Source of the DNA: Lingula anatina
Taxonomy: Eukaryota; Animalia; Brachiopoda
Length of the DNA stretch: 64,000 nt
Assembly: GCA_051362555.1 (NCBI GenBank)
Contig: CM120648.1
Span: 18,906,587 to 18,970,586 of the forward strand
Direction of reading: 5' to 3'
A model generated the notes under the pieces. It was not told where the DNA came from. It was given only the letters and a program-made list of their open reading frames with translations, and searched no databases. Made by a program: the position numbers and the translations under genes. This document shows, in pieces, positions 25,884 to 54,005 of the stretch (within the stretch, counting starts at the first letter, position 1; each line of letters starts with the position of its first letter).

Positions 25884-26817
25884 ATGGAAGCCATGTTAGG
25901 GCAGTCTAGACGAGGTGTAAATCCAAGATCAGGACAGGTGACAGTACAGACACAACCTCCATTAGCTGAACAGGAAACAAATACAACATCAGCTACACAT
26001 CCTAATGTTTTCTTAGAGAAAGCAGAATGTGTGCGTTCCTTCAGTGCTAAACTGGAAGATGATAGAGAAATAACTGGCATAACTGGGTTAGCCATAGATA
26101 AGGAACACATGTTTGTTGTGGATGATGAAAACAACAGAACAAAAGTATTCACACATGAAGGACAATTTAAGTTTGACATTAAAGTAAACAAACCATATGA
26201 TGTGGCTGTGTCACAGACTGGTCACCTGTATATAACATCACTGGGTGACAGATGTGTCCAAGTGTACTCCACCAGAGGTCAGCAGGTGACAACCATGGGT
26301 CAGGGTATACTGGAGGAACCACAGGGTATTACACTGAACAGACAAGGTCATGTGATGGTTTGTGACAGTAGAAAGAAGTCCATCTTCACATTTCATGCAG
26401 ACAGTGGACAGCTCCTGAACACTATTCCACTCAGTATGTGTGAATTACCAGAGTACATCACAGTGAACACTGTGAATGATAACATTGTGATATCAGACAT
26501 GTGGAGACACTGTGTACATGTGCTGTCACCTACTGGTGATCATCTGTACAAGTATGACTGCAGCAGAGAAGGCAGTGAACTGAGTTTACCATATGGAGTG
26601 TGCACAGACAGCTATGGTCACATCTTCATTGCTGACAGTTGGAACCACAGGATAGTGGCACTGAGTCCACAGGGACAGTTTATCAGATACATTGTCACTA
26701 AGGATGATGGGTTGAAGTATCCCAGGGCAGTAGTCATCAACCCTGCTACTGGTCAACTGGTGGTGGGAGACACAGGGGGCAATGTTAAGACATTCACGTA
26801 CATTGAACTGAAACAAG
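25884..26817 (+). CDS. Exon 1 (putative): TRIM2/3-like NHL-repeat beta-propeller lacking RING/B-box
   Basis: About six NHL repeats (PYDVAVSQTGHLYIT, PQGITLNRQGHVMVCD, PYGVCTDSYGHIFIADSWNHRI). Ends in a consensus phase-1 donor CAAG|GTGAGT; if unspliced, the ORF stops at 26825 (313 aa). Confidence 0.9.
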
Positions 26818-27812
26818 GTGAGTAACATGTATTAACTGTGGATAGATATGATTATTATGTAAATATTTGAAAGTTAATTAGTCTTACAATGTTTTTATCC
26901 ATGAATATGTTTGCCTTTATTTCAATAAAAAAACTTTTAAGCATATTTTAATTCAGTAAGCACACAGCTGTGCTTTAGTAAAAATGTATGTAGAGTGGAG
27001 ACATTTTCTATTGTTAATACTTTACTGTTACTGACAAATTTCCATGAACCCATTAGTGATTAGGATTTTGAATAAGGATAAAGAACTCTTTTTAATGGAA
27101 TTTATAGTATGCTTTATTTGTATTTTTATTAAGTCACAAGAAAAACATCTTACATTGTTTAATCCCTGAACTTCTTGTCCATTTGTCAGTGAAGAACAAC
27201 TCAAGTCTCACAACAGAACAGTCCAGTTCTTCATATTCTTCATCTTGTAGCTGTTCATGAAAGCTTAGATATACCTAAATTCTCAAATGTACTTTGTCAA
27301 GTTTCTTGATGTCTTACCACTTCTAGATTCAAAGACATTTCATCACCAGTTTGTTGTTAACACACACAAATAAATTAAATGTTGAAGTACTTTGGATGAT
27401 ACCTTATTTTCCTGACTTTGTGGATTGCAAATAAAACTAGCAGACGACCATTTTTCATGAAATGGAACTACTTTTCACAGGAAGTAGTGTATTCATACAC
27501 AACAGTGACCTTGGGTTTGGAATACAAAAAAATAGTACATGTATTCATACTGTCACAGCATGCAAATTATAATGAAATATACAAAACTAAAAACATTTTT
27601 ATGTAACACAAAAAGTTAAATGCATTTTATTTATTTATATATATTATATATATATATATATATTATTATTATTATTATTATTATTATACTGGATAAAAAT
27701 GTTGATGAAATGGTTTTGACCACCTTTTTGGAACTTTTAAACTGCTTGCTGATGGACCCACATATTTATGTCATACACACTAAACATAGATGAGAAAGAA
27801 TATATCACGATG

Positions 27813-27880
<68 letters not shown>

Positions 27881-28179
27881 ATGCCTAATATGTATGCACT
27901 ACAGGTTCAATTCCAAATGTTATTCTTAAAAACCATATACTAGTAAATAAAAACGATTTCTTAGAATGCTTGAAAGTGAAATTTTCTGAGTATGATTTAT
28001 TTCAAACAGAACAACTTTATGGCTGTTGACACTTCTGGATTGTCTGATTATATAGCCAAAATAATCCATAAAGCATTCTGCTATAGGAATAAATAACAAA
28101 TCATAAATAAACATCAATGCTGTCATATCATACACAATACAAGAAAAGCATATGTCTACATGCAAATGTACAGTGTGTA

Positions 28180-28378
28180 TATGTTGCCAGAGTGTAGCCA
28201 CTGGCGGCTAGCTTCCAGCAACCCTACCGCTTACCTCCAGCAACATGCACTGTATATAGCCGAGACAAGCTGCTAGCGGCTAGCCTGTGGGGATACTTTC
28301 CGGCAGCATTTTTATGTTGCTGGAGTACTCCTGCTATACTCCGGGAGTACTTCAGCAACATTTTACGTTCTGTAAGGG
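28180..28378. mobile_element. CACTA/EnSpm-like terminus (orphan end)
   Basis: Ends TTCTGTAAGGG (reverse complement CCCTTACAGAA) with subterminal CCAGCAAC/GTTGCTGG repeats. No partner end found. Confidence 0.5.
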
Positions 28379-28746
28379 CATGCATTTCTAAGTTTTATAG
28401 TAAGCACACAGCTAGGTGTTAGTAAAAATGTATGTAGAGTGGAGAAACTTTTTACTGTTATTGACCAATTTCCACTGAACCCATCAGAATTATGAGTGAG
28501 AATGAGACACCTGCCCATCAGGCAAGTACAATATGTCTGTACATCTACTTGCCCTGCTCCAAATGTACTTGGTCTGCTTCAAATTAAAAAAAAAATGGGT
28601 GTTGATAAAATTTATTCTGAACAGTCTATAAGTCAGGCAGATTCAGTACAATGGCGTATGTATTTGTAGGTTGATAAGTTATTCACTAAAGAAAAAAACT
28701 TCATGTAATAATCATAATAGTGATACATAATACATGTATCATGATA

Positions 28747-30087
28747 CAGGGAGGGAAATGGGCGGTCGCCAGTCGCCAAATGCGACCGCTAAAACGAATT
28801 GGCGAGTGCCAATCTCAGTAACTGGTCCAAACGGGCGACTGCTCTATAAGCAGCGGCAACATGAGAAATATACGGGGTTTTTACTTGTCCTTAGATATTT
28901 TTCCTTTTAAAAAAAGAAAAAAAAAAAACGCTCCCAATTTTGTCTGCATCGAAGACTACGCAAATTTCAGATGTGTTGACCTATTTTAATGACGCTTCCG
29001 AACACGTCAGACGTTATTTGCATGCGACCTGACCTCTTGCATCAGACTGTCAATTTTGACCAATCAGATTTTACCACAGCATTCGCGCCGTATGAAGTAG
29101 CAGAGCCTCGAGGATTGAAAAGCTACGTACGCAACAAACCTTTTCGGTAAAAATACTAATTTACTTGAGTGCAGTCTTGTAGTTTTGAAGGGTAAATATA
29201 ATTCTTTAAATGGTTTCTGGTCTTTTTCGATGTCAATAGCTTATAGTTACATTCAAGATTTTACAAGAAACGTTACTTTTCCCGTTGGGGCCGTTAGCAT
29301 GCTGCCGAAATATTTTCTTATTGGAAATTAAATCAAAACTACATTTAGTGTGTGAATTGAATTAGTTCAACTTATCTTACAATTTTATAGCGATGTGGAG
29401 GTTTTTGCCTGGTGTGACAAAGCCGCCAGAGCCTCTAAAACGAAAAACACCGACAAATGACAAAAGCGAACAACCTAGCACTAAATGTAAAAAAAAAGAG
29501 AGCTCGGGTACCTTCCTTTAAAACAGCTACGGATTTTTGAGGAAAATAAAAAGGCGAGGATTTTTTGTTCCGTTTTATGGTTATATTTCAACTTTTGGGA
29601 CTTTGAAGTTACTTCCTATTTCGTGTTAATACAATGGGTGTTAACCCATTGTTCTAATTCCAAACCTTGTTTGGGTAAACACAGAGATTAATAACTCCTT
29701 TATATTTTTTAACCTAATAGTTAAAATACTTGATTTCTATTGTGTGATGTGGCATCATTTCCTTTAACCATAAAAGGTGGGGAGAAAAAGCTGTTTAGTT
29801 TTTAAAATGTGAATAAATGTTGATGAATTTTGGGGAGTTATTTGGTTGATTTCAATTCTTTTAAATAAGTTCAAAATAAAAACATGAAAATTAAACTTAA
29901 TTTGCTTTATTTTATTGGCGCATTTTAATAATAATTTTAAAAAACGAAGTTGCTCAGTATGTTAAAACCGTCCACACATTTTTGATTCTTTCATAATTGG
30001 ACCAGTGCCCCAAGGCCTAGGACCACTACCTCCAGAGTCAACTGGTCCAAGTGGACCAGTGCTGAAAAATTCCCATTTCCCTCCCTG
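28747..30087. mobile_element. hAT-like non-autonomous element with 6-bp TSD
   Basis: TIR CAGG(G)AGGGAAATGGG...CCCATTTCCCTCCCTG, flanked by ATGATA on both sides. GGACCAGT and GGCGAC/GTCGCC subterminal motifs are shared with 2763-4443. Confidence 0.8.
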
Positions 30088-32389
30088 ATGATACATTTCA
30101 CCATGTTATGATGCAAACACCATCAAATGAAAACAAAAATAAACTTGTTATTAAACCATTTCAACAAATGTTTGTGCCAAGCAGATATTTAGCATTGTAC
30201 AATGTATATGGTCAGTGTATGGGGGGGCAAAGTGATTTCCATTTCGTCAGAAAATGAAAAAACGGCCGTTTTTCATTTTCATTTGATAAATTGTCAAAGT
30301 GAAATGGAAAATCAACCTCGATTTTCGTTTTTCCTTTTAAAATGAAAAATGGAAAAACGAGATTATTTTTCGTTTTTTCCGCTTTTTTGTGACATAAAAA
30401 AAAACAAAAAACGACAGATTTCCAAACGTGATAGAAAATAGAAACATCCACTGTTTTCCCATGTCAAGAGAGTGAAATATATTAGAAAATACGTCCTTTT
30501 CTCCTTCTGTGAAGAAATGAAGTATCGAAGCATGTTTATTTTTTGCCATTATGGTTTCAATGGAAAAACGGAAGTCAGTTCGTTTTTCTGATTTTCATTT
30601 TGGAAATAAAACTTGGAAAACGGAAGTATATAAAGACATACAGACAGAAAAATGGCAGCCCTTGAAACTTTGACTTCACGAGACTAGGATTATTCCTGGT
30701 TTTGTAAAAGTATTCGGAAATTTAGTAAATTACTTTAAGAAAAATGAATTAAGGAATTTCAGAAATTCTATAAACTGTGGACAATTATGGAAAAACAATG
30801 CGCCCTCGCTGTGTGTGGTTCAGAAATATGAAATAGGCCCCTAGGTTAGTGTCTAGGTCAAAGTGGAGAAGAGATGAAGGTTGGATCTGTTTCTGTAAGG
30901 ACTTTTTGTGACAAGATTTTGATAGAAAGTAGAAATTTTTATCATGAGAGAAATATTTGAAGGTTATTAAGTCGCCTGGACTGTAGTGCTGGTACCCCAG
31001 ATAGCAACAAGGCGTTGGCCCGACGCTGGGCCAACGTCGGCATGGTTGGCCTAACGACGTCGGGCCAACGTCGTAAGGCCGGCCAGTGCACTGGGCCGAC
31101 GTCGGGCCAGCGCAGGTGCCGGCGTCGGGCCGACGTCCGTGCTCATCGGCCATCTGTTGGCCCGACGTCGGGCCAACGTCGTTTTGCCAACCAGCTGACG
31201 TTGGCCCGATGATGGGCCGACGTTGGCCCGATGGTGGGTAATGGTTGGCCCGATGGTGGCCCAGCGTCAGGGTTATGATGTTGGGCCGACGTTGGCCCAT
31301 TGTAATTATGCCAACCAGCTTATTGGCCCTGCATAGGCCCAAAATTAATTTTTTTTATTTTAAAGTAAGTGATTAACTTTATGAAATTATAAGCAAAAAC
31401 AACAACGATAACAATTTCTGTCTGCAACACAAAATATATTCTTTATTATATCATAGTGGTGATTTCATGGCCAATTTCATGGCCAAATTTAATTTCTGAA
31501 AATTCCTACTTTAGATCAAGTCTGAAAATTATATTATCTGAATATTTAATTAGTTACATAAAACTTATTTATGAATGAACCTTATATTAACCCTGTACAT
31601 TAAGTTCTACAGGATGCTTTCAGTTTAAAAAGGCCTGAATCACTTTATTTATGACTTCATTTTTTAGTTAAAGTTAAAATTGGTTCAATTATGTTCAAAG
31701 TACATACATATATATATATATATATACATATACGTAACCAAATCAACAGTAAATAGAATGTCAATAAATTTAATAAAAAAGAAACCTCTTGTCTTTTTGT
31801 ACAAAACAATGTATGTTTAAAAAAACTACACTGCAAAAAGGCAAATATACAGACACTAAGCAGGGAGAAATGTCACTTATATACATGTAAAGAAAAAAGA
31901 ACAAACCTTATTTTTTTTACTAAAGAAAGCTGCTCATCGAACTAACACAAAAATTGGGAATAAATTATGCATGTACATGGGGGGGGGGGGGTGAGGGGCA
32001 AAAATATTTTTGCACACCTTAGCCTAAATAATATTATACATTGTCATTTTTTTAAACTATTTCAAACGTAACATTAATAAACATAATCACTAGTTCTGTA
32101 ATGAATGAATCTTGAATAGTGAATGAAAAAAACATTGTTTTTTTAGATGAAGGAGAGTTATAACAAAATTATAAATAACCATGCAGTAACTGTTTCAATT
32201 CAACTAGCATGCTGGCTACATACATGTAAACTCTGAAAAAAGAACCATGAAAACTCCATAGATATAGATGTACTAAAAAAAAAGAGAATTACATGTGCAC
32301 AAAAAAAAACCAGTATACTGTTGATGCTTTTGAATTAAATCAAAATAATACTGTTTGTTTTGTGGTCCTCCAATGAGCCACATTTATTT

Positions 32390-33085
32390 TTCTTGGATTT
32401 CAGCATTCCCCATGCATTTTCATCAATGATATTACAATATGCACCTGAATCTGGCAATAACGCCGCCTATCTCTATTTCCATCATGTCTGTGTATATTGC
32501 ATTGGTTCCCACACCAAATGTATATGCACTCCTGGATTATCATGTTCATAACTGTCATTTACTTGAATAATAGTTTAAGTTTCGCAGACTTTTGCAAAGT
32601 GATCCAACGTTCCTTGTTTTCTCAGTCGGAGGGTTTCTATTCGTTTTTCGTGTCTGAACTCGTGGTGTTTAGACTGAGTTGGTTTGTCAAATGACTTCGG
32701 TTTCACCATACTCACATTTTCTGGTGTTCCACTTCCTTTTAAAGCGTTAACTGTCTATGTATATTCATGTTTCTCACCTGTGTTTGGGAGAGTCCTGAAA
32801 ATATCTTGTACACCTGTCCCTGCTGAATGCAACATAAGCGCGCGTCTCCTCTGACATGTATTTTTAATTTTCTGTCGTTGTTCATTATTCATTCCGTCCG
32901 TTGGTTCCGAAACAGTCAATCTTTTCCGCCAGCGAAGAGTTTAAATCTGTCTAGCCAGCGTCCAACGTGGCCCTAATGTCTCCGGACTTCTGTACGGTTC
33001 GATTCGTAATTTCACATTTTTCCTCCATTTTCTCAAAGAAAGTTGGCTCACAGTTTTGCACTAGAGTTAATCCTCGTCGCCAGTG
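32390..33085 (-). mobile_element. Deleted Gypsy LTR-retrotransposon remnant (PBS, gag N-terminus, protease)
   Basis: PBS TGGCGACGAGGA at 33071-33082 (minus strand). Gag-like WLDRFKLF...RRRALMLHSAGTGVQDIFRTLPNTGE and protease-like DSGAYCNIIDENAW, with frameshifts. Confidence 0.7.
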
Positions 33086-34460
33086 TTAATGTCTTCCAAT
33101 TAAATCGCATCACGAATCAAATCACTCAACGAATTGTATCAGTTTGATACGCTTGTGCTTTTTTCATATCCATAACTCTAAGAAACGCTACATTCGGGTC
33201 CTTGACCGGCTTATCATAAAAAGCGGAATTTCAAAACAGCGGGACGAGTAGCTCTAACAAGTTAACAATTCATTCAAATGTCAAGTCAAATTAAACAAAT
33301 AGTGCACTAATGAGGGGACTTTGAAGAAAAGAGAGAAAAAGAGAGAGATAAATTAAATCAAAATTGATCAAATGACGATAGTTCAATCATTCAGCTCACT
33401 GGTCAATAAAAAATAAATAAATAAGAAAAAAAAATAAAAAATTAAAAATTTAAAAAAAATAATAAATGACTTCACCAAATATTGGCTTGATGGCAGCTTA
33501 ACATAAAATTAAAAAAGACTGCAGTCTGTCCGCAGATCTGGCATATCAATGCGTAAGCGGTGATCATTACAAAAACACCTACGCGCTTGCACAAAATAGT
33601 CCGCGACGTGTGTTTCGCGCCATGTTTTCAAAAACCCGTAGTTGTTATATAAATCCATGAAGCTCTGTGAATAACTCATTATTCCGCTTGAAACTTTCAA
33701 AAAATAAAATTTAGAACTTGATGTAAACGCACAATGTAAAATGAACATTTCAATTTCGACGAAAGCCTTGTATCAGTTGTCTAAAAATAGCATACGCATT
33801 TTTCTCAAGCAGATCGTGTAATTTTGTACCCTAAAATGAAATGATTGTAGAAAAAATGGACAAACTTACTTAATTGATATTATAACGATTTATGCAACTG
33901 TATATGCTGGAATTGAGCCAAAAAGAATAAAAAATTTGTACAACCGTCCTTTTTTGTGAAATCCCTATTTTAGTGCGAACTATGTGGGTCAGTCGAAACT
34001 GGGACTGTCACGTTGCACTGAGCAAGTGACTGGAGAGCGTTTTTCTTGGTAAATCTTGCATTTCGGTTGAAAAAAATTGAATGTTCAGCTTTTCAAGTGT
34101 ATATTTATAGTATACAATGTGTCACTGTCATAGTGAGAGTTGTAATGGAAAATAATACGTGAAAAAAAGACATCGGTGCTGGAGATCAACCATAACATAC
34201 AGTGTATATGGTTTTAGAATGGAAAAATCTGCCTTTCAAGTTACATAGCTTTGGGTTTGCCGACTAAAAGGTGAGTCTTTTTTTAAATTCACTATGTTTC
34301 ACTATGTTTCATAAATGATTTTGGAGTAACCTCCCTTCGCATAGTTCAGATGCACTTGTTGACGTTCAGTACTAGTGAATGTTACATTTTGTTGCAAAGT
34401 TACAGTTGTACTTTGTTTACATAAAATGTGTAGATTACTAGTAGTAGGACCAAGGAATTA

Positions 34461-37400
34461 TTATTGTACCACCAGCGTTAGCGCTGGCGGTACACATGGT
34501 TTCGGTCCCGTCCGGATCGTTCCGCCGGCTCCGCCGGCTCCGTTGGCTCCGCCGGCTCCGCCGGACGGCTACCGTTACCGCTTCTCCTCCTAGACGGTAA
34601 GGGCCCCCGTACCCATCTCATGGATTTAGGTCACCTATAATCTCAACTCGTTCCACGTAAAATTTGGGCTTTGTCGGTATTGGGGTCTGGGTGTGGCACT
34701 CATTGCAATTCACCCTTGTCTAAAAATGGCAAAATTAAATGCTAATTATCTACCCTACGGAAGGAGTTATGGGAAAAATTTCTATAGACGGTTTTCCAAA
34801 AGTCATATGTGTAGATTTCAAATATACCCTTGGATTTGACCTTTGACCTCTACTTCAAGGTCAAATGGGCCAAAATTTTCAAAAAAATGAAATTTTTTAC
34901 GAAAAAAAATTTTTTTGCCCTGTTATTCAGACACCACACAGACTTAACCAATAATATTATTGGAAAGTGTTACCCTTCAGGTCATCTTTCATCTCCATGA
35001 ATTTGGGGTCAATCGGTGCATTTTCACGGGAGTAGCGGCCATAAGATACCGAAACTTAAAACTGTCTCTAATTCGGGAACCGTTAATGCTAGAGACCCAT
35101 TCTTTTTTGCATTTTGTAGAGCATGTAAAGCCCAACACTAGAAGTGGTCTCGGTTTTTTTGTATTCCATACGGTTTTCGAGTTACGCTCTATCAAAAAGT
35201 AGATATTGGTGGTAAAAGCAAAATGTGCAGTACGGTAATGGATAATAAATTTTGAACTCTGGAAAAATAAAACATAAGGCTTGGCAAAGCAGACAACTTG
35301 TGTTCAAAAATGACATTATTTCATCAAATTTGAACTTCTGAAACTTCAAGGCACCTCCTATTTCAAGAATTTTGACCAAAATGACATTTTCTTTATTTTA
35401 ATTAATTTTTTCTGTACGAAATTTAAGGCACATTATGGTAATTCCAAAATTATAACATCTAGTCCCTTATATCTCCAAAACTGGCAGAGATAGGTCCATA
35501 GTTACTATTGAAGTTGAATAGGAAGTCATATACTGGCAATCTTACTATGACCTTGAAATTGACCTTTGACCTACTTTTCACCATGAACTGAACTTTGCAA
35601 ATTTTTCTTCCCTTTTATCTCCAAAACTGGCAGAGATAGGTCCATAGTTACTATTGAACTTGAAAAGGAAGTCATATACTGGCAATCTAAATGTGACCTT
35701 AAAATTGACCTTTGACCTACTTTACACCATGAACTGAATTTTGCAAATTTTGCTTCCCTTTTATCTCCAAAACTGGCAGAGATAGGTCCGTAGTTACTAT
35801 TGAACTTGAATAGGAAGTCATATACTGGCAATCTAAATGTGACCTTAAAATTGACCTTTGACCTACTTTTCACCATGAACTGAATTTTGCAAAATTTGCT
35901 TCCCTTTTATCTCCAAAACTGGCAGAGATAGGTCCATAGTTACTATTGAACTTGAATAGGAAGTCATATACTGGCAATCTAAATGTGACCTTAAAATTGA
36001 CCTTTGACCTACTTTTCACCATGAACTGAACTTTGCAAATTTTTCTTCCCTTTTATCTCCAAAACTGGCAGAGATAGGTCCATAGTTACTATTGAAGTTG
36101 AATAGGAAGTCATATACTGGCAATCTAAATGTGACCTTAAAATTGACCTTTGACCTACTTAACACCATGAACTGAATTTTGCAAATTTTGCTTTCCTTCT
36201 ATCTGCAAAACTGGCTGAGATAGGTCCGTAGTTACTATTGAGCTTGAATAGGAAGTCATATACTGACAATCTAAATGTGACCTTAAAATTGACCTTTGAC
36301 CTACTTTTCACCATAAACTGAACTTTGCAAATTTTGCTTCCCTTTTATCTCCAAAACTTGCAGAGATAGGTCCATAGTTACTATTGAACTTGAATAGAAA
36401 GTCATATACTGGCAATCTAAATGTGACCTTGAAATTGACCTTTGACCTACTTTTCACCATGAACTGAACTTTGCAAACTTTTCTTCCCTTTTATCTCCAA
36501 AACTGGCAGAGATAGGTCCATAGTTACTATTGAACTTGAAAAGGAAGTCATATACTGGCAATCTAAATGTGACCTTAAAATTGACCTTGACCTACTTTAC
36601 ACCATGAACTGAATTTTGCAAATTTTGCTTCCCTTTTATCTCCAAAACTGGATGAGATAGGTCCATAGTTACTATTGAAATTGAATAGGAAGTCATATAC
36701 TGGCAATCTAAATGTGACCTTAAAATTGACCTTTGACCTACTTTTCACCATAAACTGAACTTTGCAAAATTTGCTTCCCTTTTATCTCCAAAACTGGCAG
36801 AGATAGGTCCATAGTTACTATTGAAGTTGAATAGGAAGTCATATACTGGCATTATAAATGTGACATTAAAATTGACCTTTGTCCTACTTTTCACCATAAA
36901 CTGAACTTTGCAAATTTTGCTTCCCTTTTATCTCCAAAACTTGCAGAGATAGGTCCATAGTTACTATTGAACTTGAATAGAAAGTCATATACTGGCAATC
37001 TAAATGTGACCTTGAAATTGACCTTTGACCTACTTTTCACCATGAACTGAATTTTGCAAATTTTGCTTCCCTTTTATCTCCAAAACTGGCTGAGATAGGT
37101 CCATAGTAACTATTGAAGTTGAATAGGAAGTCCTATACTGGCAATCTAAGTGTGACCTTGAAAATGACCTTTGACCTACTTATTATCATGAACTGAACTC
37201 TGCTAATTTCTTTCTCTTTTAACTTCAAACTTGACAGAGATAGGTCCATAGTTACTCTTGAACTTGAATAGGAAGTCATATACTGGCAGTTTACTGTGAC
37301 CTTGAAATTGACCCTTGACCTACCTTACGAAGAACTTAAATTTGATTGTACCATATATATTTTTTGCAATAGTTTAAAAATTCTTGTTGATTGCATTTTT

Positions 37401-37529
37401 ACAGCTTGTCAAGCACAAAACTGGTGGCTGTGTCCCTTATTTTGTGTAAGTGGGGGTCTATACGAATGCGCTTGCTCCAGCTGGTGGTACAATATTTGGA
37501 GGCGGTATCGCCTCTCTGATCCTCTAGTT
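34461..37529 (+). mobile_element. Helentron-associated (HINE/DINE-1-like) element with central satellite
   Basis: 5' TTATTGTACCACCAGC with a nearby inverted copy, (CCGCCGGCT)n micro-repeats, central tandem array, 3' subTIR GCTGGTGGTACAA, hairpin GAGGCGGTATCGCCTC and CTAGTT end. Inserted in T-rich DNA without a clear TSD. Confidence 0.8.
35465..37325 (+). repeat. 146-bp tandem repeat, about 13 units
   Basis: CCAAAACTGGCAGAGATAGGTCC recurs at 35475, 35621, 35767, 35913, 36059 and onward to about 37226 (146-bp period). Confidence 0.95.
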
Positions 37530-40500
37530 ATTATATAGTATGGTAAGAAATTACTTTGATAAACAACTGGTGTGAGACTGACAATGAGGTGATTTTTTTT
37601 TTTAATCTATGGATTTTTCATGTAAAAATTTCAGTTTTTATCTGCTTTGTATAAATTTCTTGTTTCTACATGTATGATTTTATCATTTTATTATATTTAT
37701 TTTTAACAGATTCCCAATTTGGGCATATCAGCTGACAATTAGGGAAGAGGTGTTCTGGTCAAGACCAGGGAAAATTATTTTCTATACGGTTTTGTTTGAT
37801 GGTGCTGTTGATGCAGGTGTGACTGAACAAGAGATGGTGTTTTGTACTGTAGAGTCTTGGATATTTTTTACCCTAGAAACCTTTCTCATAGCAGACAAGT
37901 TCTGGAACATTATTTTCTTCAAGTATTATACAGGATGGGCTTTGACCCAAAAGACTTCCATTGAGAGTGGCCTGCCTTTAAAGAGCACATAGGTGGCATG
38001 TTTATAGTGAATAAAAGTAAAGATATGTGTACTGATTTGTTTCAAGGCTAGGAGACCAGACAAAGATTAGAATACATACAATAATGCTATTTGAAATTGC
38101 CTTGTTCAGCCTGTCCACTTCTCAGGTGGAGAGAGGATACAGTGCTCTCAAAAGAACCGAATCTGACTGGAGGTCAAGTTTGGGGAATATTGTGCTTAAG
38201 TTAACAAAATTTTGACAGCAGTTTTATAGGGGCCAAGTTTTGATGATCATTTAGTCAAGGAATCTATCAACCACTGTGTGGCAGGGTGGCACTCTGGGAA
38301 AACAGCCCAATTTTGAACTTGAAAATTGATTTTGTTTTCTGACTATCATATCCAGGTAAATGACCTGGCCATTGAAGATTCTAAGGAAATAAAAAAATTG
38401 AAACATACTCGTATACTGAAGTTTTGTTTTTTTTCATTTTTAATGCACTTTGATATGTATTTAATTACAAATTATATTCAAGAATTTTCAGTTGGGGATG
38501 ATCTTGGTTGTATGTCAGTTTTGGCTAAAGTAATATTCATAACTTGCTGGGGCAGGTGCTTCTTCTGCCCTCAGAATAGACATCAAGTTGGCCAACGAGT
38601 TTATTGGAGCCTTGTTAACTGCTTTAATTTAAAAGGCAAAAAGTTTAAAAAAAACTTTCAAAAAGTTCAGTGCATATTCATGAGGCTGAATTAACATTTC
38701 CCAGGGACAGTGCTTTAAGGACATGAGTTTTAAATGTTTACTTAGTTTTGTTTATCACACAGATTTCAAAATTTTGCACTTTTAAAAAGAGAAATGTAAA
38801 TTTTAAATAGATTAGGGATATTTTTTTCAAATTGCAATTGTAAGGGTCTTATTTTAAATAGTTTAATATGTAAGAGACAAAAATAGTACTAGTACATAGA
38901 AATAAATATTGAGCAGTAAAATAAGAGAACAAGGCAGAAGTGCAGATCTTAATATAATGAATAAACCGGAGTTGAATGATTTTTTTTTATCAAAACCCTT
39001 TCAGGCTTTAAAAAGTACAACCTGGCCATAGACCAGTACTTCATTGTAAATATTTATCCAATTAAAAAAAATCTTGTTTTATTTATAACTAGATCTTATC
39101 ATCTAGCAATATCTTTCTATATCGGTCAAAATTCACACTGGATTTCTTGTGGAGTGGATCATAACTATACAATTTTTGATGTTTTAAGAATGAGTTTATA
39201 TAACTCTTGGAATATTTCTGATGTTAGATGCACAGCACTTGTTCGTATTTTAATTTTATTGTAACTTGTTTGCTCTGATATTCAGAATATTTAAGAAAAC
39301 TTGTAGTCTTGTTAAGTCGGGTCAGTGCTTCAGGTTGGTCACGTGACGCTATAAATTATGATGAAAATGGGGTTCCATTTTTGTCGTCGTTTTGGAGATG
39401 CACTAATTTCCCCACACAAAATGGGTAAAAATTGTAGGAGATATACCTTATGATATATCATTTGAAAGTTTATGATCTTATCTTTCTGCAGGATGTAATT
39501 GTTTGAAAATATTTTGCGTTTCCTGCGATACATAATCACAGTAACTTAATGCACTTGAAAAAATCGATTTTGCCGACTTTAACACCGACTTCACGGGAAT
39601 ATGAACACTTTGCCAACGAGGTGGGACCCAAACGCAACATGTGTTTCATATCAACACAAAGCACACTTGTTTACCTTTTAGAATATATATAAAACGCTGG
39701 TGATTTCAACATTGTAGCAATATTGTTTAAATTGAAACACCCTAGTGTTGCACGCTTCAAAATTGCGAGTGCTTGGCGTCGAGTTCACCTCGCGCTAAAA
39801 AAAATGGACAAAGCTGAATTTTCAATATATATATACTGCCAGAGACCCAGTTTAACCAGCTTTCATGATTTAGTTTTTAAAACTTTGTACAATTTAAACT
39901 TCTTATAGAGATCTTCAAATAGAAAATTTCGGACACCTGAAACGGGGCACCATTTGCAATCACCCGCGTGGATAAATCTTCCATTTTACCGTTCTGAATC
40001 TATTTTTTATGACAACTAACCTTAAGATTCCGAATCCCTAGATATCCCCGCTTCTTTTTATATATCTATCGTTTAATCACATCAACTGTTGACAAAACTA
40101 CACATGAAAATACGAAGAGCTCAAAAGTCGTCCATTTTCACTCGATTTTGCTGAAAGTAGTGCGAAAATGGCCGTCGCTTCAGACAGTGTGCACGTGCAG
40201 CTCGGAATCTGCGGACAGACTGCTGGTCCAACATAAGTTAAAAGCTTAAAAAATGATGTTGGTCCTACGTTGGCCCAACGTTGGCCCCACATCGGATCAA
40301 CGTCAACAAAATGACGTTGGCCCTACATTGGATCAACGACAAAAAAATGATGTTGGTCCTACGTTGGCCCAACGTTGGCCCTACATCGGATCAACGTCAA
40401 AAAAATGACGCTGGCCCGACATTGGCCCAATGACGGCAGACCAACGTCAACAGTGCCGACGTTGGCCCAACGTTGGCCCGATGGCGGCATGCCAATGCCG

Positions 40501-43362
40501 ACCAAGTGCCAACGGTGCCGACGTTGGCCCAACGTCATCTTGCTATCTGGGGGTATAGCCTCATTTGATGTTCTTTTAACTAAGTAGGCCTACTGGTGCG
40601 TGCGACTGGGCAAAGCAGTTATGTAGCTGCACAAATTTTGTAGCTGTGTTTCTGTGGATAACACTGGATAAATTAATAAAATGTTTGTTAGAATCTTTAC
40701 ACCCCTGCGTCTTGTTGCTCTTGAATGTTATTGTTCCTTAGTCAAAGAAGTTATTGAGTTAGTTTTTACAAACCTACAGGGCCCTTTGCGCAATGCATTT
40801 GCTTTATTATCTTATGTACGTAATCACAAACTAATAAACAAATTATGTATTTCCTCTTCCTAAACATTTTAATGCAACCTTTGGGGGGGGGGGGGGGTAT
40901 TTTATTTTATAAAAATTCACACATTTGCATCTTGAGTTTGACTCTCTTTTTTAATGCAATACGAGCGTTGGGACGGACAATCTCAAATATTCGTCGTGTT
41001 GATAAAAATAAGCTGTACATAGAAGGAAAAATAAGTGCAAGATTTCTCTCTTGTTTCAGTTTTTACTGCTGTTACTGTACAAACCAGCAACTAATCAGGT
41101 AACAAAAACAGGGGTGGATCCAAGATTATTTGAAGGTTGGGGGGGGGGGGGGGGAGTCCGCGGTAAGCGTGTCATTGTTGTAATATTATAATATATTAAT
41201 ATTTAACCTTTCAAAAAATTTAGATGTTCAAAAAACAGTCCTTGGATGCGAAGCCGACCCTCTGGCGTGGGTTTCGGGGCCCGCTGAAAGGCATTTTAGA
41301 GAGTACCATTTGGCATGGTTTACAACTATGATTCAGCTGGTGAAAATTCTAATTTCAAGAGGGGATCATTGGTGTGATATTTTTCATAAATCGAAAGGGG
41401 GGATGTCAGGATCCCTACATAAATCCGCCACCTAAAATGTTCACCAACCTGTATCGATCAACTGTATCGATCTTCTGAAGGAGTGAATGAGTATATCATC
41501 TAGTAAGGTCTTGACTTCCTAGCCCGTAGCTGTGTTTCAAGCATAATTAGATGTTTTGAAGGTACATTAAATGAATATGACATGAATAAAAAACTAAGAC
41601 CTTTAGTTTAAGAGAAAGTCTCCCCCCCCCCTCCCCCCCCCCCCCCCACCCCCCTTAATCATAAAATGTTCCTGACGCCTTTTTGGCATTTGACAACCGT
41701 TTTGGTGGGTTTTTCTCTCTTAAAAATTTGCTTACAGCTAGGATAGACGATAATAATTTTGGTCCTAGCTTACAGATAGCCCCCCTACTCCCTTTCGGCC
41801 CTTTGACCGTAGATAACTGATCAGCATTTTCTGACCAAACTTTCAAATAAGAGGAAACACGTGCTGCGATAAATCATTAAACAATAAGACTGATTTTAAA
41901 GAAGTAAGACTGATCAAGGATGAGAACAAAGACAAATTGTTTAAGTTTTTAATCGTGCCGTTGAAGCTAAATGGTAGGCCTATATTATCTACAAATCAGC
42001 GGATCTACAATAAACAACAACAAAAATATGACAATAACCAAATACTTTATTAAAACCTAATTTTCCATGAAAGTTATTCACAGTGGATAGAGAGTTAAAA
42101 CAGTCTGATTAGAATATATTTTCAGCACACAAACAGCTGGCACATGCACTGGGTGCAATAGGCCTATACCTGTCTGTTGCACAAAGTTGAACTCCCTTGT
42201 GCACACTAGTAATGGATCTCTGTTTCTGTTATGCCTTTAAGTGGAAGTTGTAGACCAACGTCAACAGCATATCCCAAATTCTGCATTATTTATAAAAATA
42301 ATTCATTGCATTTAAGCTTTATCTGACAGTATTTAGTCACCAATAACTTGCAGCCATAAATCATTTCTCTGTCTGTGTGTCTGCACGTCCGTTTCTCCAT
42401 TTTCATTCATAAAATGAAAATCAGAAAAACGAACGGACTTTCGTTTTTCTATTTGAATCGAAAATTGAATAATGAACACTTTTCGAGCCTGTCATTTCCT
42501 CAAAGACACGGATAAAAGGGTATTTTATGATTTATTTCACGTGTTAAACATTAGAAAAAATGAAAACGGTCGATATTTATATTTTTGTATCACATCGGGG
42601 ATCTGTCGATATTGTATTCTGCATTTTATAGTAAAATATAAAAAACGAGGGCAATTTCCATTTTTCCATTTTTCATTTTAAATGGAAAAACGAAAACTGA
42701 GTTTCATTTTCCACTACATTTTGGCCATTTCTATAAAATGAAAATGAAAAACGGCCGTTTTTTCATTTTCTGACGAAATGGAAATCACTTTGCCCCCCCA
42801 TACACTGACCGTATATGTATGCTGATTGCCATTTCAAGTCTAAATTAAACAAACATCAACGTTGCCTACAAAACTGATACAACTGCACCAAATATCTCTT
42901 GCTATATGAAATACTTGTTGAAATGATGTTTTCAATAGAACTTATATTTTGTTTCATTTTTTTATTTAATCATGAGAAAAACATTCTAAAATGTTTAATC
43001 CCATTTCTTAGTATTATCATTATGCTTCACATATATATCAAGGCTGTTGCAATGTTTTTTTTTTGTTTTTTTTTTAACTAGTAAGCAAAATCTCTTACAC
43101 TGCTACAGCATATCATCTACTAGCTACAATTTTTACATCTGATGGTTTTTAAATTAAAACTTACTGTCCCTGTGATTCATCAGCTGAGATTTTTTTTTTT
43201 TTTTTTTTTTGAATAAGTCATATTGTGTAATATTATTCTGTGTTGTTGTTAAAGGGATAACAACTGTTTGTATGATATCCATATTTACTAATAAATATAT
43301 TGTAAACAACTCATAAAAATATAACAAATTATGTTTTACCACTAAAATGGCAGTCAACACAT

Positions 43363-44332
43363 TTATTAGTACCACCAGCCTGTAAGCTGTTGGTACTCCT
43401 AATTTTATTCCCGACCCGTCTCATACAGCTCCACTAGCTCCGCATTCTGGAGCTGGATACAAGTCACCATTCTCCTCCTAGACCCCAAGGACCCATGTCC
43501 CCATCTCTTGGATTTAGGTCACATATTATCTCAATTTGAACCCTTTTTTTTGGCTCAGTTGATGCATTATCCTGGGCATGACGTTCGTTGAAACGCACCC
43601 TTGTCAAAATTTTTGAAAATTCGATGCCAAATATCTCTCAAACCAAAGGAATTATCGGAAAAATTACTATAGAATTTTGACCGAAAGTCATATTTGTAGA
43701 TTCCAGATATGCCCTTGGATTTGACAGTTGACCTTTATCTCAAGGTCAAACAGGCCAAAATCTCCAAAAAATGGGGATTTAAAAAAATATGTTTGTGCCA
43801 ATTTTTAGAAACTACACCGACCTAAGTGGGGGGATTACAATTTGGGACTTCTTCGGGAGTTTGGGGTCAATAGGTGCATTTTCACAGGAGAGGCAGCCGT
43901 TAGATGCCAAAGCTGAAAACTCTCTATTAAACCAGAACCCTAAATACAAGAGACCTCTTGTTTTTTGCATTTCGTAGAGCTTGTCAAGCTCAATTGATAC
44001 GTACTGGGGTTGGAATCCATTTTTTTGTTTGTTTTTGATATGTAGGTTAGGAGTTGTGCTATATAAAAAAGTACATTTCAATATTCAGTAGTGAAGCAAA
44101 ATGTGAAATACTCAAAAACTGGCAGAGATACACCCATGGTTACTATTGACCTTGAATAAGAAGTCACATACTGGCAGCCAAACTGTGACCTTGAAATTGA
44201 CCTTTGACCTACTTTTTCATCTTAAACTAAGTCTTGCAAATTTTTTGCCTCTTTTATCTGCAAAAATGGCAGAGATACACTTATAGTTACTATTGACCTT
44301 GAATAGGAAGTCATATACTGGCAATCTTACTC
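43363..44332 (+). mobile_element. Diverged, 3'-truncated HINE copy with about 1.5 satellite units
   Basis: Starts TTATTAGTACCACCAGC, is homologous to 34461-35220, and has satellite units at about 44113 and 44260. Confidence 0.65.
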
Positions 44333-44790
44333 TACGCTGCTTTGTAATCTGGAACATAGTCGATCTTACACGTCAGACTTTGTGTGCAAATCGACTTTGT
44401 GATTTATGAAAAATGTCTGTATACTTCACTTTGTTCTTCAGCAGTGATTCAGTATCCAGATTACACACCCTTTTTATCTATCTGTCTATTTTACTCGAAG
44501 TTTGTTTTACCCTGATATAAATAACGCACCATAGTATTTTTGGGAATTTCTCAATTCAATTCAAAAATTTAATTAAGCTGCGATTTATCGACTTTTGTCA
44601 TCGTGAAAATGTGAGATTTTACATAACACACTGTTACTCTCAAGCACATATGCAGGCATCCACCTCTCTAGATTTTCTCTCGCTTCCTCTCTGCTATCAC
44701 TTCACAATAAATATAACGTCTGCAAACATCATCGTTCACCTTATCCATGAGTCCTTTTGTCAATCTGAAGCATAACATTTGTATTACCAG

Positions 44791-45021
44791 GTGAGTTTAA
44801 TGAACGGCTTCGCCGATTGTGTGAAAGTGGTAAGATTCCAGTATACCGACAGCGAGTAGCTATTGTTGGACCTTACGGTGTGGGGAAGACTTATCTCGCC
44901 AAGCGCCTCATCCATGAGGAATATATCAAAGAAGAAGATGCAAATACAACTGGCGTGAATATATACCGCCATAGGTGTGTTGTCCATAAAGCTGGCCGAT
45001 CCTGTTGGATCAGAGGAAAAG
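44791..45021 (+). CDS. Roc GTPase exon: P-loop and switch I
   Basis: GKIPVYRQRVAIVGPYGVGKTYLAKRL...NTTGVNI. Phase 1-1, CCAG acceptor, G|GTAAGC donor. An in-frame TGA at 44766-44768 and no ATG before the P-loop mean an upstream exon is required. Confidence 0.85.
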
Positions 45022-45470: not shown

Positions 45471-45626
45471 ATGATCCAAAAGACCAGTTTGCACAAAACA
45501 TGGCAATTGGAGTACAGAATTCAGATACGTTTTGTGAGCCGGACTTAACAGTATTGGACCAAACGCCACTAGAGGAATCCCCACCAGATTCAGAAGAGAA
45601 TATTAATAACATGCTGACAAATAGAG
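45471..45626 (+). CDS. Roc insertion exon (acidic)
   Basis: TTCTCAG acceptor; DDPKDQFAQNMAIG...EESPPDSEENINNMLTNR; phase 1-1. Confidence 0.65.
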
Positions 45627-45840
45627 GTATTGTACATGATTGTCTCGAATAGTTCATCTTGGTGCAATTTAAACAGATATTTGTAGTTATTCTTCTTTTT
45701 TGCCAAGAGATTCCACCTTCTATGTGTTTTTCTTTGGCCATTCCACATATATGTGCCTTGAAAACATTTTTGTTTACTTCAAGGTTGATTCTTTTTCTGT
45801 TAGAATGTTGTTTGATATTATTCTTCTCTTTATTCTACAG

Positions 45841-45891
45841 CTGCTTCCCCTGATGACAGTGAATCACCTGCCTCTCCTGACAAAGCAGCAG
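45841..45891 (+). CDS. Micro-exon (51 nt) of the Roc insertion
   Basis: Long pyrimidine tract plus TACAG; AASPDDSESPASPDKAA; CAG|GTAAGT donor; phase 1-1. Confidence 0.7.
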
Positions 45892-47350
45892 GTAAGTAGT
45901 TCACATGTAGTAAAACAAAATTCTCGTGTGTTGCTCAGAATGTTCGAGAGTTTTTCTTAGCTTGTTGATAAGGTATGTGAGTTTCTATCTTCTTATTTTC
46001 ATCATACTGGGACTTTGAACTCACATGGGCATGAAGCCTGGTGGTAATCAAATTTTCTTAATGTCCATGTTTTTAATAGAATATAATTAAAATTTTGTGG
46101 TATTTATACAGTTGACCATTATGTTATATTGCATCAAAAACCTACTTTGTGCACTATCACCATAACGTTATAAAAAGAAAACTGTTACCTATTTTATATT
46201 TACAAAAAATGATTCTTAGGATTGACAAATAGCTTAAATTAGAAAAACCAGCTCTTTTGAATTATCCTTTTTATCGAATTATGCATTTTTTGTGAAATTT
46301 TTATTTATCTCATTCTGGTGTGAGCTTGAACTCTCATGGGCCTGAAGCCTTATGCTTTTACTTACATCGTTATATACTGTTGTGCATAATTAAATTTTGG
46401 GGTTGACTGTGCAGTTAAGCATTGTATTACATTAGAACTGACAGCCTCCTATTTTGTGCATTATTATTTTCTGCTTTTTTAAAATTGTGACTTAGATATT
46501 TCATGGGCCTGAATACCGTTGCTAGTCACATTTGGGTGACAAGCCTCTAATCTTCCATTGGGTAACTACTAGCTAAATTCAGAGCTATAAGGTCACTTGC
46601 CTAAATTAAGTTTCAAGTGGCAATAAAATGAGATCATATAAAACACACATGTTGAGATTCCCTGTAAACTCCCATAGGTTAAGTTTTCTGCCAGATAACA
46701 GTGTCCATAATAGGGAAGCAGTGATAATTATGCAGATAAATGTTGTTTAATTTTGCAAATTAGTTTTCAAAAAATTATTTTGTATAATGCCAACATTAAT
46801 GCTAGTTTTAAAAGCAGCTTTACTGAAATGTTTTGTTTTTAATTTTTTTCAAACACTGAGGGTTTCAACTCAATTTTTAACTCCCCTCCACCTGAAGCTC
46901 TGCACATTTTCTGTTTTCCCACAAAAGCAGTTGTATTGGTATTTATGTATTTCAGCATTATGTAACATTATATTATTCTATGCACTGCTTTCATATGTCA
47001 AATATTGTGATTTTCATTACTAGTATGTGAATTTGAACTTTCGTGGTCCTGAAACTGTAATCTTATCATAGGGGCAGATTGGGATCGTCCTCAAGGTTTT
47101 CAGGAAGACGGTCAGATTTTAAAGTTAACATTGACGGGTATCTAATTTTTTTGTTGGAAGACCATCTAAAATGGAGGGTGGATTAACAAAGATATTTTAA
47201 AATACTGTCAGAAAATACATTTGGATCCGCTCCTGTTATTGACCATGTTACCTGTTGTGCATGACTTAAATTCAGTGTCGATTGACCGTGCTATTACAAG
47301 TATTATTTATTATTGCATCAAAATGAGAAAATAACCTATTTTTTGCATCT

Positions 47351-47389
<39 letters not shown>

Positions 47390-47396
47390 TTTTGTC

Positions 47397-48015
47397 TGTA
47401 GACTTGTCCTTCAAGAAATACATGCCTTCAAGAAATCGACGAAAACTGGAAGTGCATGTTTTTTGCACTGTTTTTCCTGTCATGCCCATCGTAAACACTG
47501 TGTTGTCAAGTAAAAGGAAGCATCTGATACAAAGTATCAAACGCGGCATTGACGTGCTTGCTTGCGATGTGTTCAGTACACTTTGTTTACACTGACAAGT
47601 CGAGGTCAGAAATGCACAATGTTTTTCTATGTAATTACGCAGTTTCAATTTTGATTAGTGAATTTTCTTTTATCTGCATGGTCATTTTCCGAACATTTGT
47701 ATAAGCCACGAAATATTTCTCATCGGAAAATCACCCAGCAGCTTTCCAAGTACAAGCGAGTGACGTCATGACGCACTTCCGGTTTTCGTCAAGATCTTGA
47801 AGGGATTAGCGTTATGGTTTGCTGCACATTTAAAGCGTTCTGTCTCTAAATGTACTTGACTGCTTGGATTGAAATTTACAGAACTTATTCTTCACATGAT
47901 ATCACACATATGTGCTTAATTTGAGAGCTTTAGCTGTTATATATTTTCTACAGTGCCCATTCAAAATTGAAAAAGAGCTATTTTCCGTCAATTTTTCTTG
48001 AAGGGCAGGTCTACA
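47397..48015. mobile_element. MITE-like element
   Basis: Imperfect TIR TGTAGACTTGTCCTTCAAGAAA...TTTCTTGAAGGGCAGGTCTACA, flanked by TTTGTC/TTTGAC. Confidence 0.5.
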
Positions 48016-48395
48016 TTTGACAGATTTGCTGTCTTGTTTTATCTGGGTACAAACACGACAATTTAATTTTCTGTAAAATAAGTCTTCTTTATATGACTGA
48101 GGATTATTTTTCTTTTTGCCAAGGGATTCCACCTTCTATGTGTTTTTTGTTGGCCATTATACCTTATGTGCCTTGAAGACTGGACACTTGATACCAATTA
48201 TACTTGATCTTATTAGATGCATTTTCGATGTAATTTATTTATTTTTATACAATATTTATAGACCAATATCCCAAAGTTATATGTTAAAATTTTGTAAAGA
48301 AATTCCTTTATCTTAGCCACATTTTTGTTTACTTTAAGATTGAGTCATTTTCTGCTAGAATGGTGTTTGATATTCTTCTTCTCTTTATTCTACAG

Positions 48396-48428
48396 CCGCT
48401 CCACCTGCCTCTCCTGACAGAGCAGCAG
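48396..48428 (+). CDS. Duplicated micro-exon (33 nt) of the Roc insertion
   Basis: Paralog of 45841-45891 with an 18-nt in-frame deletion; AAPPASPDRAA; splice sites intact; phase 1-1. Confidence 0.65.
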
Positions 48429-49260: not shown

Positions 49261-49506
49261 TGGCAGAAAGGAACCATCTAGATGATATTGACAAGGAGCT
49301 ATTGGAAAAAATTGAGAAAATTGCCCGAGGGGAAGATGTGGAGCCAGAGAAACAGGTCACAATTTGGGATTTTGCAGGACAGGATGTCTACTACACCACG
49401 CACCAAACATTCCTCTCAGAGCGGATCATCTACTTGTTGGTATTCCGACTTGACCAGGACCTCGATGATAAAATCCGTGTATACAGGGGAGAGAAGACGC
49501 TGAAAG
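49261..49506 (+). CDS. Roc exon: G3/switch II
   Basis: VTIWDFAGQDVYYTTHQTFLSERIIYLLVFRL is the canonical Roc motif. TTGCAG acceptor; phase 1-1. Confidence 0.92.
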
Positions 49507-49772
49507 GTATTGTTGAGCTTTATATCTTTACATGTATAAGCTACTCAGGGCCCTCATGTAAATAATGGCCTGTCAACTGTGTGTAATTTCTTTATTAAAA
49601 GGTCCACATTTTTAAATCTCTCTATTGCTCTTAATATATATATATATATATAACATTGAGATTTTAGTAGCGTTAATTTTAAATGGTTCCGATGAGTGTT
49701 TTGGATTTTAATATTCTAGTGATTTTAAGGATTTTAGTTATATTTACCATTGTAAGCCGCCCAATAAGAAAC

Positions 49773-49803
<31 letters not shown>

Positions 49804-49894
49804 TATTGGCGCTATTTTTTAGCAATGCTGAGGAGAAAACACTGATTAATATTCATCTTTGCATTAACATCAAGGCTTTGTATGTATTTTTCAG

Positions 49895-50019
49895 AGTTTA
49901 TTATGTTTTGGTTAAACTCAATCCATATGCACACTATTGGAAAATTGAGGGAAGAAGACAAAAATGCCATGCCATACGTCTTGATTATTGGAACTCATAA
50001 GGACATGTTATGCCCACAG
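49895..50019 (+). CDS. Roc exon: G4
   Basis: FWLNSIH...PYVLIIGTHKD; phase 1-0. Confidence 0.9.
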
Positions 50020-50063
50020 GTGAAAACGCTTTTCTTATCACAATTATTCAATTACTACCATAC

Positions 50064-53955: not shown

Positions 53956-54005
53956 CAGCCCCAGAGAATCAAGACCGTCGTGCAGCCAAGTGTCCTGAAA
54001 ACGAG
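53956..54005 (+). CDS. COR-caspase linker exon with GC donor
   Basis: TTTTAGCAG (NAGNAG) acceptor; AAPENQDRRAAKCPENE; GAG|GCAAGT donor. It converts phase 1 to the phase 0 required by the next exon. Confidence 0.7.

What the first reader, a model, noticed from the sequence alone, without database searches (positions are those of the whole stretch)
26811..44796. NHL module appears grafted onto the Roco-caspase across an 18-kb intron, with a possible NHL-only isoform
Seen: the NHL ORF ends AAACAAG|GTGAGT, a consensus phase-1 donor just before its stop codon. The first Roc exon needs a phase-1 upstream exon (in-frame TGA at 44766, no ATG). I found no other convincing exon in between, where most DNA is transposon-derived. 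An AATAAA at 26924-26929 follows the unspliced stop at 26825. Inference: a TRIM-derived terminal NHL exon without RING/B-box was recruited as an N-terminal sensor, and splicing versus intronic polyadenylation could yield the full receptor or a 313-aa NHL-only decoy. This is the least certain join in the model.
Basis: partly seen in the sequence, partly recalled or inferred. Interest (0 to 1): 0.8.

Follow-up and report, generated by a model that had tools for sequence, protein, structure and literature searches.

The report
Hypervariable NHL cassette plugged onto Roco-caspase
In a lamp shell (Lingula), a propeller-shaped module derived from TRIM genes, one face of which differs greatly between copies, is likely spliced across an 18-kb intron onto a GTPase-caspase gene, likely giving one of a family of mix-and-match immune sensors; the proposed short decoy form is untested.

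Summary
Homologues place the window in Lingula. Two RefSeq models carry exactly the predicted junction (…KQ|GEFNER…); one matches the window's first Roc exons at 146/146 residues. A 16-exon model reads NHL–Roc–COR–caspase–ZU5, 1,544 aa without a stop. RNA depth suggests the Roc exon is entered by splicing, but no junction read was seen.

The family is the more interesting result. The NHL exon is one TRIM-derived clade of phase-1 cassettes. In 7 of 12 RefSeq loci it is fused at the same point to one of three bodies: this Roc type, a ~30%-identical Roc type, or a CARD-like tail. Seven close cassettes are 91–97% identical off the propeller's top face but 43–60% on it, and indel patterns suggest recombination between copies. 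This fits a shuffled, fast-diversifying sensor; ligand and function are inferred.

The NHL-only decoy is unsupported. The stop follows from the donor consensus (GK* lies behind two other donors), and AATAAA occurs in 20% of 150-nt intron windows. Four RefSeq models do end this way.

Verdict: a new variant of modular Roco receptors.

The parts
25884..26817 (+). [quoted passage not shown]
   Evidence: Pfam NHL E 2e-21; AlphaFold pLDDT 83 with 24 strands; Foldseek best hits TRIM3/TRIM2 NHL; 76-88% identical to Lingula RefSeq cassettes
26818..44790 (+). Inferred 17,973-nt phase-1 intron, largely repeat-derived
   Evidence: Splice sites; same junction in P0008 and P0052; no coding homology inside; repeats
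26818..26929 (+). Read-through stop (26823-26825) and AATAAA (26924-26929): possible NHL-only end, unproven
   Evidence: Sequence; chance background
44791..45021 (+). Roc exon with G1 P-loop and G2; phase 1-1, 231 nt; starts with GTGAGT (RS-exon-like)
   Evidence: Pfam Roc; motifs; about 53-57x depth in run X4 if all coverage is exonic
45471..48428 (+). Three phase 1-1 exons of the Roc insertion (45471-45626, 45841-45891, 48396-48428); the last two are duplicates
49261..50019 (+). Roc exons with G3 (49261-49506) and G4 (49895-50019)
52116..53286 (+). End of Roc (G5) and COR exon
   Evidence: Pfam COR-A E 2e-21; 60-81% identical to five Lingula Rocos
53959..57850 (+). Linker exon (inferred GC donor) and five caspase exons with His (SHG) and Cys (QACQG) intact
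   Evidence: Pfam Peptidase_C14 on three of the five exons; motifs; open frame
61138..62335 (+). ZU5 exon (61138-61823) and next exon (62159-62335); in frame with the caspase through a phase-1 intron, join inferred; the gene likely continues past the window
   Evidence: Pfam ZU5 E 2e-19; frame

Best explanation
The NHL exon is a TRIM-derived phase-1 cassette that is likely spliced across the 18-kb intron to the Roc exon, which would give a cytosolic NHL-Roc-COR-caspase(-ZU5) protein that likely acts as a variable immune sensor coupled to a death protease. Origin (inferred): a 5'-truncated copy of a Lingula TRIM-NHL gene gained a start codon in its linker and a donor just past the old end of the protein. 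The copy multiplied and was attached, always at this donor, to different bodies: two distant Roc-COR types and a CARD-like tail. Copies diversify mainly on the propeller's top face (shown at protein level), probably by positive selection plus recombination between copies (inferred). Mechanism (inferred): ligand, possibly foreign RNA or protein, binds the top face. By blade topology the C-terminus leaves at the opposite face, towards Roc. Binding would shift the nucleotide-dependent Roc-COR dimer and bring two caspase domains together, activating them by proximity. The full-length form is probably the main product; an NHL-only transcript is possible (about 0.3) but not shown.
For: Junction identical in P0008 and P0052, whose Roc parts are 98.6% and 100% identical to the window. 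All 7 fused RefSeq loci join at the same cassette end. The 16-exon model is open for 1,544 aa, with phase-1 introns at the NHL|Roc, COR|linker and caspase|ZU5 borders. Without an upstream coding exon the first Met lies after the P-loop. In run X4 the first Roc exon's bin implies about 57x, against 34-57x for the other three long Roc exons estimated; this leaves about 2x for the upstream flank, as expected for an internal exon. Cassettes form one clade within the TRIM-NHL expansion. Positions with 4 or more residues among 9 cassettes: 15 of 47 top-face, 0 of 53 bottom-loop, 8 of 169 other (Fisher p 9e-8). One clade for the three Roc-B cassettes is rejected (p-AU 0.005) although two of those bodies are 88% identical. 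All four combinations of two indels occur. GTPase G1-G5 and the caspase dyad are intact. NHL top surfaces bind RNA in Brat and LIN-41 (PMC9070667, PMC5908797, passages). Roco proteins are proposed to act as nucleotide-dependent dimers (PMC4104024, passages).
Against: No read across the junction was seen: the 15 joints displayed were all within repeat or intronic DNA (130 joints and 619 loose ends not shown), and no reads were obtained on the NHL exon. RefSeq XP_ models are predictions, and neither P0008 nor P0052 extends to COR or caspase. Their NHL parts are only 87-88% identical to the window, so either may be a paralogue. X4 reads pool all copies at least 93% alike, and X1, X3 and X7 show almost no coverage of the first Roc exon. 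X4 also covers about 40700-42400 in the intron at 25-45x, which could be another first or last exon. TRIM-NHL parents are also more variable on top (35% vs 72% off-top), so loop tolerance explains part of the pattern. No dN/dS was possible. The top-face set was widened from 47 to 59 positions, and the Roc-B group was tested after pairwise identities had been seen. No ligand, immune induction or caspase activity was tested.
Confidence: 0.72

Rival explanations
1. Same gene, but with regulated two-product output: intronic polyadenylation near 26950 makes a stable 313-aa NHL-only decoy alongside the full receptor.
For: 4 of 12 RefSeq cassette loci are modelled as NHL-only, ending GE*, GK* or a short read-through (P0051, P0053, P0055, P0056). 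P0053 is shared by at least four transcript accessions. AATAAA lies 107 nt after the donor.
Against: A stop after two residues follows from a phase-1 GTRAGT donor about 23% of the time, and GK* lies behind donors 45891 and 48428 too. P0052 ends in that same GK at a Roc exon, so RefSeq models do stop by read-through. 20% of 150-nt intron windows hold AATAAA; donors 54498 and 57850 have closer ones.
Confidence: 0.3
2. Two separate genes at this locus: the NHL gene stands alone or splices to something else (for example the transcribed stretch at about 40700-42400), and the Roc-caspase uses a different first exon.
For: No junction read seen; X4 sense coverage of 25-45x inside the intron; 4 of the 5 Roc-A models begin after the P-loop exon; 18 kb of intervening repeats.
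Against: The exact junction is in two models whose Roc parts are nearly identical to the window. No alternative coding exon was found: none of the 7 strong donors in the interval has an ATG-led phase-1 frame of 20 aa or more, and there is no homology. A non-coding first exon would lose the P-loop.
Confidence: 0.1
3. The fusion is real, but the NHL variability reflects relaxed constraint on surface loops in young duplicates or haplotigs, and the protein has a non-immune or no function.
For: TRIM parents show the same top-face bias; several RefSeq models are partial; expression is very low in 3 of 4 runs.
Against: Bottom loops are equally exposed yet 0 of 53 positions have 3 or more residues. 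Off-top identity is 91-97% and the Roc part 98.6-100%, the frame is open over 16 exons, and catalytic residues are intact.
Confidence: 0.15

Closest known systems
Brown algal LRR-ROC-COR candidate immune receptors (PMC11378527; abstract, passages and section 14 read)
   Same: Expanded Roco family whose N-terminal repeat sensor is exon-shuffled and diversifying.
   Different: There single LRR exons are shuffled inside one gene; here a whole NHL propeller is one cassette moved between unrelated bodies, and a caspase is fused behind COR.
Modular invertebrate Roco proteins (Trichoplax set in PMC4104024, passages; 73 unnamed relatives)
   Same: Roc with insertion plus COR, flanked by variable modules (ANK, LRR, TPR, Bcl-2, SH2, Neuralized, Death, CARD, TIR, HEPN). 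Roc-COR-caspase occurs in 2 of 73 (Owenia P0085, Lingula P0096) and in P0002; NHL-Roc-COR-Death in 1 of 73 (oyster P0166, weak NHL hit).
   Different: None of the 73 combines NHL and caspase. The oyster NHL is distant from the cassette (40 bits against the Lingula profile), so that fusion is probably independent.
TRIM-NHL proteins (TRIM2/3, Brat, LIN-41/TRIM71; Lingula TRIM2/3-like expansion)
   Same: Six-bladed NHL fold (TM 0.77 to TRIM3); linker motif shared with 23 Lingula TRIM-type proteins.
   Different: No RING, B-box or coiled coil; NHL is N-terminal; the top face varies between near-identical copies.
Lophotrochozoan RLR domain grafting (PMC8998645, passages)
   Same: N-terminal modules, caspase among them, grafted by exon gain onto immune NTPases in Lingula.
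   Different: There the grafted part is a signalling or effector module on a helicase sensor; here it is the presumed sensor on a Roco GTPase.

Membership tests
Roco (Roc-COR) proteins | Roc GTPase with G1-G5 motifs | tested here: met
   Pfam Roc on two exons; G1-G5 located in the model (motif patterns recalled)
Roco (Roc-COR) proteins | COR domain directly after Roc in one reading frame | tested here: met
   COR-A E 2e-21; open frame; same order in P0001-P0005
Roco (Roc-COR) proteins | GTP binding or hydrolysis and COR-mediated dimerisation | not testable with these tools
   Inferred from PMC4104024 passages
TRIM-NHL | NHL six-bladed propeller | tested here: met
TRIM-NHL | N-terminal RING, B-box and coiled coil | tested here: not met
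   No tblastn hit of any held TRIM in the 25.8 kb upstream; the RefSeq cassette proteins start at the same Met. TRIM-derived, not a TRIM.
Caspases (clan CD, C14A) | His-Cys dyad in SHG and QACxG, with Arg residues of the Asp pocket | tested here: met
   (residue roles recalled)
Caspases (clan CD, C14A) | Proteolysis after Asp | not testable with these tools
   Needs an assay
Diversifying Roco immune receptors (brown algal type) | N-terminal LRRs, one per exon | tested here: not met
   The N-terminal module is a single-exon NHL propeller
Diversifying Roco immune receptors (brown algal type) | Diversifying selection on the ligand-facing surface | tested here: inconclusive
   Strong one-face amino-acid excess; no paralogue DNA for dN/dS
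Intronic-polyadenylation decoy isoform | Poly(A) ends after the unspliced stop | not tested
   No read data were obtained on the NHL exon or its 3' flank; the signal is at chance level
RS-exon (recursive splicing) | A 5' splice site is rebuilt at the exon-exon junction | tested here: met
   The spliced junction gives AAG|GTGAGT, equal in score to the NHL donor
RS-exon (recursive splicing) | Use of that site, seen as exon skipping | tested here: inconclusive
   P-loop exon depth 53-57x against 44x for the next exon in X4: no dominant skipping

The most novel reading that the evidence does not exclude
Lingula has a variable-receptor system built on the NHL propeller. A library of plug-in cassettes is diversified on one face by gene conversion, possibly also in somatic cells, and is coupled by splicing to interchangeable Roco or death-fold effectors, with NHL-only and P-loop-skipped isoforms tuning the threshold. 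It would be a non-LRR, non-Ig analogue of NLR or VLR repertoires.
Probability: 0.15. Interest if true: 0.9.

Novelty: new variant of a known kind. Interest (0 to 1): 0.62.

Why it matters
It shows a candidate receptor family being assembled by exon shuffling in the recent past, with the source gene family, the new start codon, the shared splice point and three different partners all visible. NHL domains are known mainly as conserved RNA-binding developmental regulators. A version whose binding face varies twofold between otherwise 95%-identical copies, wired to a Roco GTPase and a caspase, suggests NHL propellers can serve as variable pattern-recognition domains. It also offers a direct readout (caspase activity) for the open question of what Roc-COR switching does in the large invertebrate Roco expansions.

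Tried and rejected
No whole genome is held, so paralogue DNA, TRIM exon structure, dN/dS and upstream cassettes could not be examined. One search found no RNA holder listed by index; nine same-species raw-read runs were offered. laid 4 of these 9 on 37400-50700; its joint and loose-end tables were filled by repeat-derived reads, so the 5' partner of exon 44791 was not displayed. No read data were obtained for the NHL side. The ESM Atlas gave no answer. Earlier scan findings: none by place, words or sequence. Rejected: AATAAA and the early stop as evidence for an isoform (chance level); a hidden HEPN, RING/B-box or second NHL exon in the interval or upstream (0 hits from 213 proteins); dominant recursive skipping of the P-loop exon. 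The careful tree did not finish, so the quick tree is quoted; partial or deleted cassettes P0056 and P0063 and isoform P0046 were left out of both trees, and P0045 out. Literature searches listed no paper on NHL-Roco fusions or this Lingula family; only listings were seen except for the papers named. Gerdol et al. 2018 on Lingula immunity is not held. Figure 2 of PMC11378527 (about forty animal Roco architectures) and all supplements were not seen and could contain NHL-Roco.

Full report
Observation. The NHL coding exon runs 25884-26817 and ends in phase 1 at AAG|GTGAGT; read-through gives G-E-stop at 26825; AATAAA is at 26924. The Roc exon 44791-45021 has an in-frame TGA at 44766 and no ATG before its acceptor. 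The interval is rich in repeats. None of the 213 proteins held matches it or the 25.8 kb upstream by tblastn at E<=1e-3. None of its 7 strong donor-like sites closes an ATG-led phase-1 frame of 20 aa or more (the donor matrix was built from this gene's own 15 GT donors).

Organism and gene model. All close homologues are Lingula anatina RefSeq proteins. The window's exact NHL protein is not in the collection. Joining 16 exons from 25884 to 62335 gives 1,544 aa with no stop: NHL, Roc with an insertion, COR, caspase, ZU5. One intron needs a GC donor, and the caspase-ZU5 join rests on frame and phase only. G1-G5 and the caspase His and Cys are intact. Without an upstream coding exon the first Met falls after the P-loop.

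The join. P0052 (XP_013379953.1) and P0008 (XP_023930482.1) read from the NHL cassette straight into GEFNERLRRL. Their Roc parts match the window at 146/146 and 277/281 residues, their NHL parts at 88% and 87%. These are predicted models, both stop before COR, and they may be alleles or paralogues. Four of nine offered RNA runs were laid on 37400-50700. Only X4 expresses the Roc exons appreciably. If all coverage is exonic, depth is about 57x and 53x on the two parts of the first Roc exon and 34-57x on later long exons. That leaves about 2x for the upstream flank, which fits an internal exon. Reads pool copies at least 93% alike. The junction itself was not displayed, and no reads were obtained for the NHL exon, so the join at this locus remains inferred (about 0.9).

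A mobile cassette. Twelve RefSeq loci carry this cassette. Two are fused to this Roc type, three to a Roc type about 30% identical (P0007, P0054, P0076), and two to a tail that has a weak CARD hit in P0009 (E 0.0085; P0045 shares its start). Four are NHL-only and one is partial. All 7 fusions occur at the same cassette end (P0045). The same Roc type also occurs with an N-terminal HEPN (P0005) and with a C-terminal HEPN or caspase. The cassettes form one clade among 22 Lingula TRIM-type NHL domains (quick tree, SH-aLRT 99.6). The window has S-T-V-G-M-E-A-M-L-G-Q where TRIMs have S-T-[AV]-G-L-E-A-M-L-G-Q, a motif found in 23 of 56 other proteins scanned. TRIMs stop within a few residues of where the cassette continues to its donor. 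The bodies of P0007 and P0076 are 88% identical but their cassettes 77%. A single clade for the three Roc-B cassettes is rejected even without top-face columns (p-AU 0.005; group chosen after seeing identities). Two indels occur in all four combinations. Together these point to repeated exchange of cassettes.

One variable face. The model is a six-bladed propeller (pLDDT 83) closest to TRIM3 and TRIM2 NHL. I assigned faces from strand order, not from coordinates. Among 9 cassettes, positions with 4 or more residues are 15 of 47 in top loops, 0 of 53 in bottom loops and 8 of 169 elsewhere (p 9e-8); five of those 8 follow the conserved Pro at the start of strand a. With the set widened afterwards to 59 positions, seven close cassettes are 43-60% identical on top and 91-97% off top. 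TRIM parents show the same bias, less sharply (35% vs 72%). Top-face charge varies between copies (K+R 6-13, D+E 3-11), so RNA binding is not assured. The top surface is the RNA-binding one in Brat and LIN-41 (PMC9070667, PMC5908797; passages).

NHL-only isoform. Four RefSeq loci end by read-through, and one of them has at least four transcript accessions, which keeps the idea open. Against it, a two-residue stop follows such a donor about 23% of the time and occurs behind two Roc-insertion donors. P0052 ends at one of those. AATAAA lies in 362 of 1,783 intron windows of 150 nt. I put it at about 0.3. A further option is recursive splicing: the spliced junction rebuilds AAG|GTGAGT, and skipping the 231-nt exon would remove the P-loop in frame. 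Many such exons are constitutive (PMC6224609, abstract), and depth shows no dominant skipping.

Mechanism. Shown: the parts, the phases, the family of fusions and the one-face variability. Inferred: splicing at this locus, ligand binding at the top face, Roc-COR dimer switching (PMC4104024, passages) and proximity activation of the caspase (established for initiator caspases; recalled).

Comparison and novelty. Of 73 Roc-COR relatives newly found with P0007 among the best 150 hits, 2 have a caspase (Owenia, Lingula) and 1 has an N-terminal NHL (oyster; names); none has both. Exon-shuffled, diversifying Roco receptors are described in brown algae (PMC11378527; abstract, passages, section 14), and domain grafting in Lingula RLRs (PMC8998645, passages). 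PMC8195603 passages mention Lingula among organisms with many TRADD-N domain architectures and have no occurrence of NHL. Searches listed nothing on this family; Gerdol et al. 2018 could not be read. The NHL-Roc join is thus already present in automatic annotation as 'uncharacterized protein'. The full architecture, the cassette's mobility and its variable face were not found described. Verdict: new variant of a known kind, interest 0.62.

Noticed in passing
window 44788-44796: The Roc acceptor is directly followed by GTGAGT; the spliced junction rebuilds a full donor, and in-frame skipping would delete the P-loop exon. Depth shows no dominant skipping.
   Followed up: partly
window ~40700-42400: Run X4 shows continuous 25-45x coverage in the same direction as the Roc exons, with no ORF of 100 aa and two haplotypes, inside the large inverted-repeat element. 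It could be an alternative exon or a transcript of another copy.
   Followed up: partly
window 61138-62335: A ZU5 exon and a following exon are in frame behind the caspase; the gene probably continues beyond 64000, perhaps with UPA and a death domain (inferred).
   Followed up: partly
window 30205-42815: A 12.6-kb element with 450-bp terminal inverted repeats and nested insertions, including a second pair of inverted ends at about 30995 and 40552.
   Followed up: partly
window 34461-37529, 43370-44331, 50064-51785: Three copies of a non-autonomous repeat with 146-bp tandem units; heavily transcribed from other copies in all four runs.
   Followed up: no
window 45764-46009 and 48319-48545: Tandem duplication of a small phase 1-1 exon in the Roc insertion; RefSeq relatives differ in the number of such units.
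   Followed up: partly
window 24125-25112: Degenerate exon-like pieces with a weak DUF4806 hit (E 0.09) ending about 770 nt before the NHL start.
   Followed up: partly
window 25625-25870: Promoter-like stretch, then a donor-like site near 25776 and an acceptor at 25869: a possible short non-coding first exon of the NHL gene.
   Followed up: no
window 57950-58579: A 210-aa ORF in the caspase-ZU5 intron that resembles a decayed DIRS-type reverse transcriptase by recall; no Pfam hit.
   Followed up: partly
P0085, P0096, P0166: Roc-COR-caspase with an N-terminal Bcl-2 domain in Owenia (clear) and Lingula (weak), and NHL-Roc-COR-Death in an oyster.
   Followed up: partly
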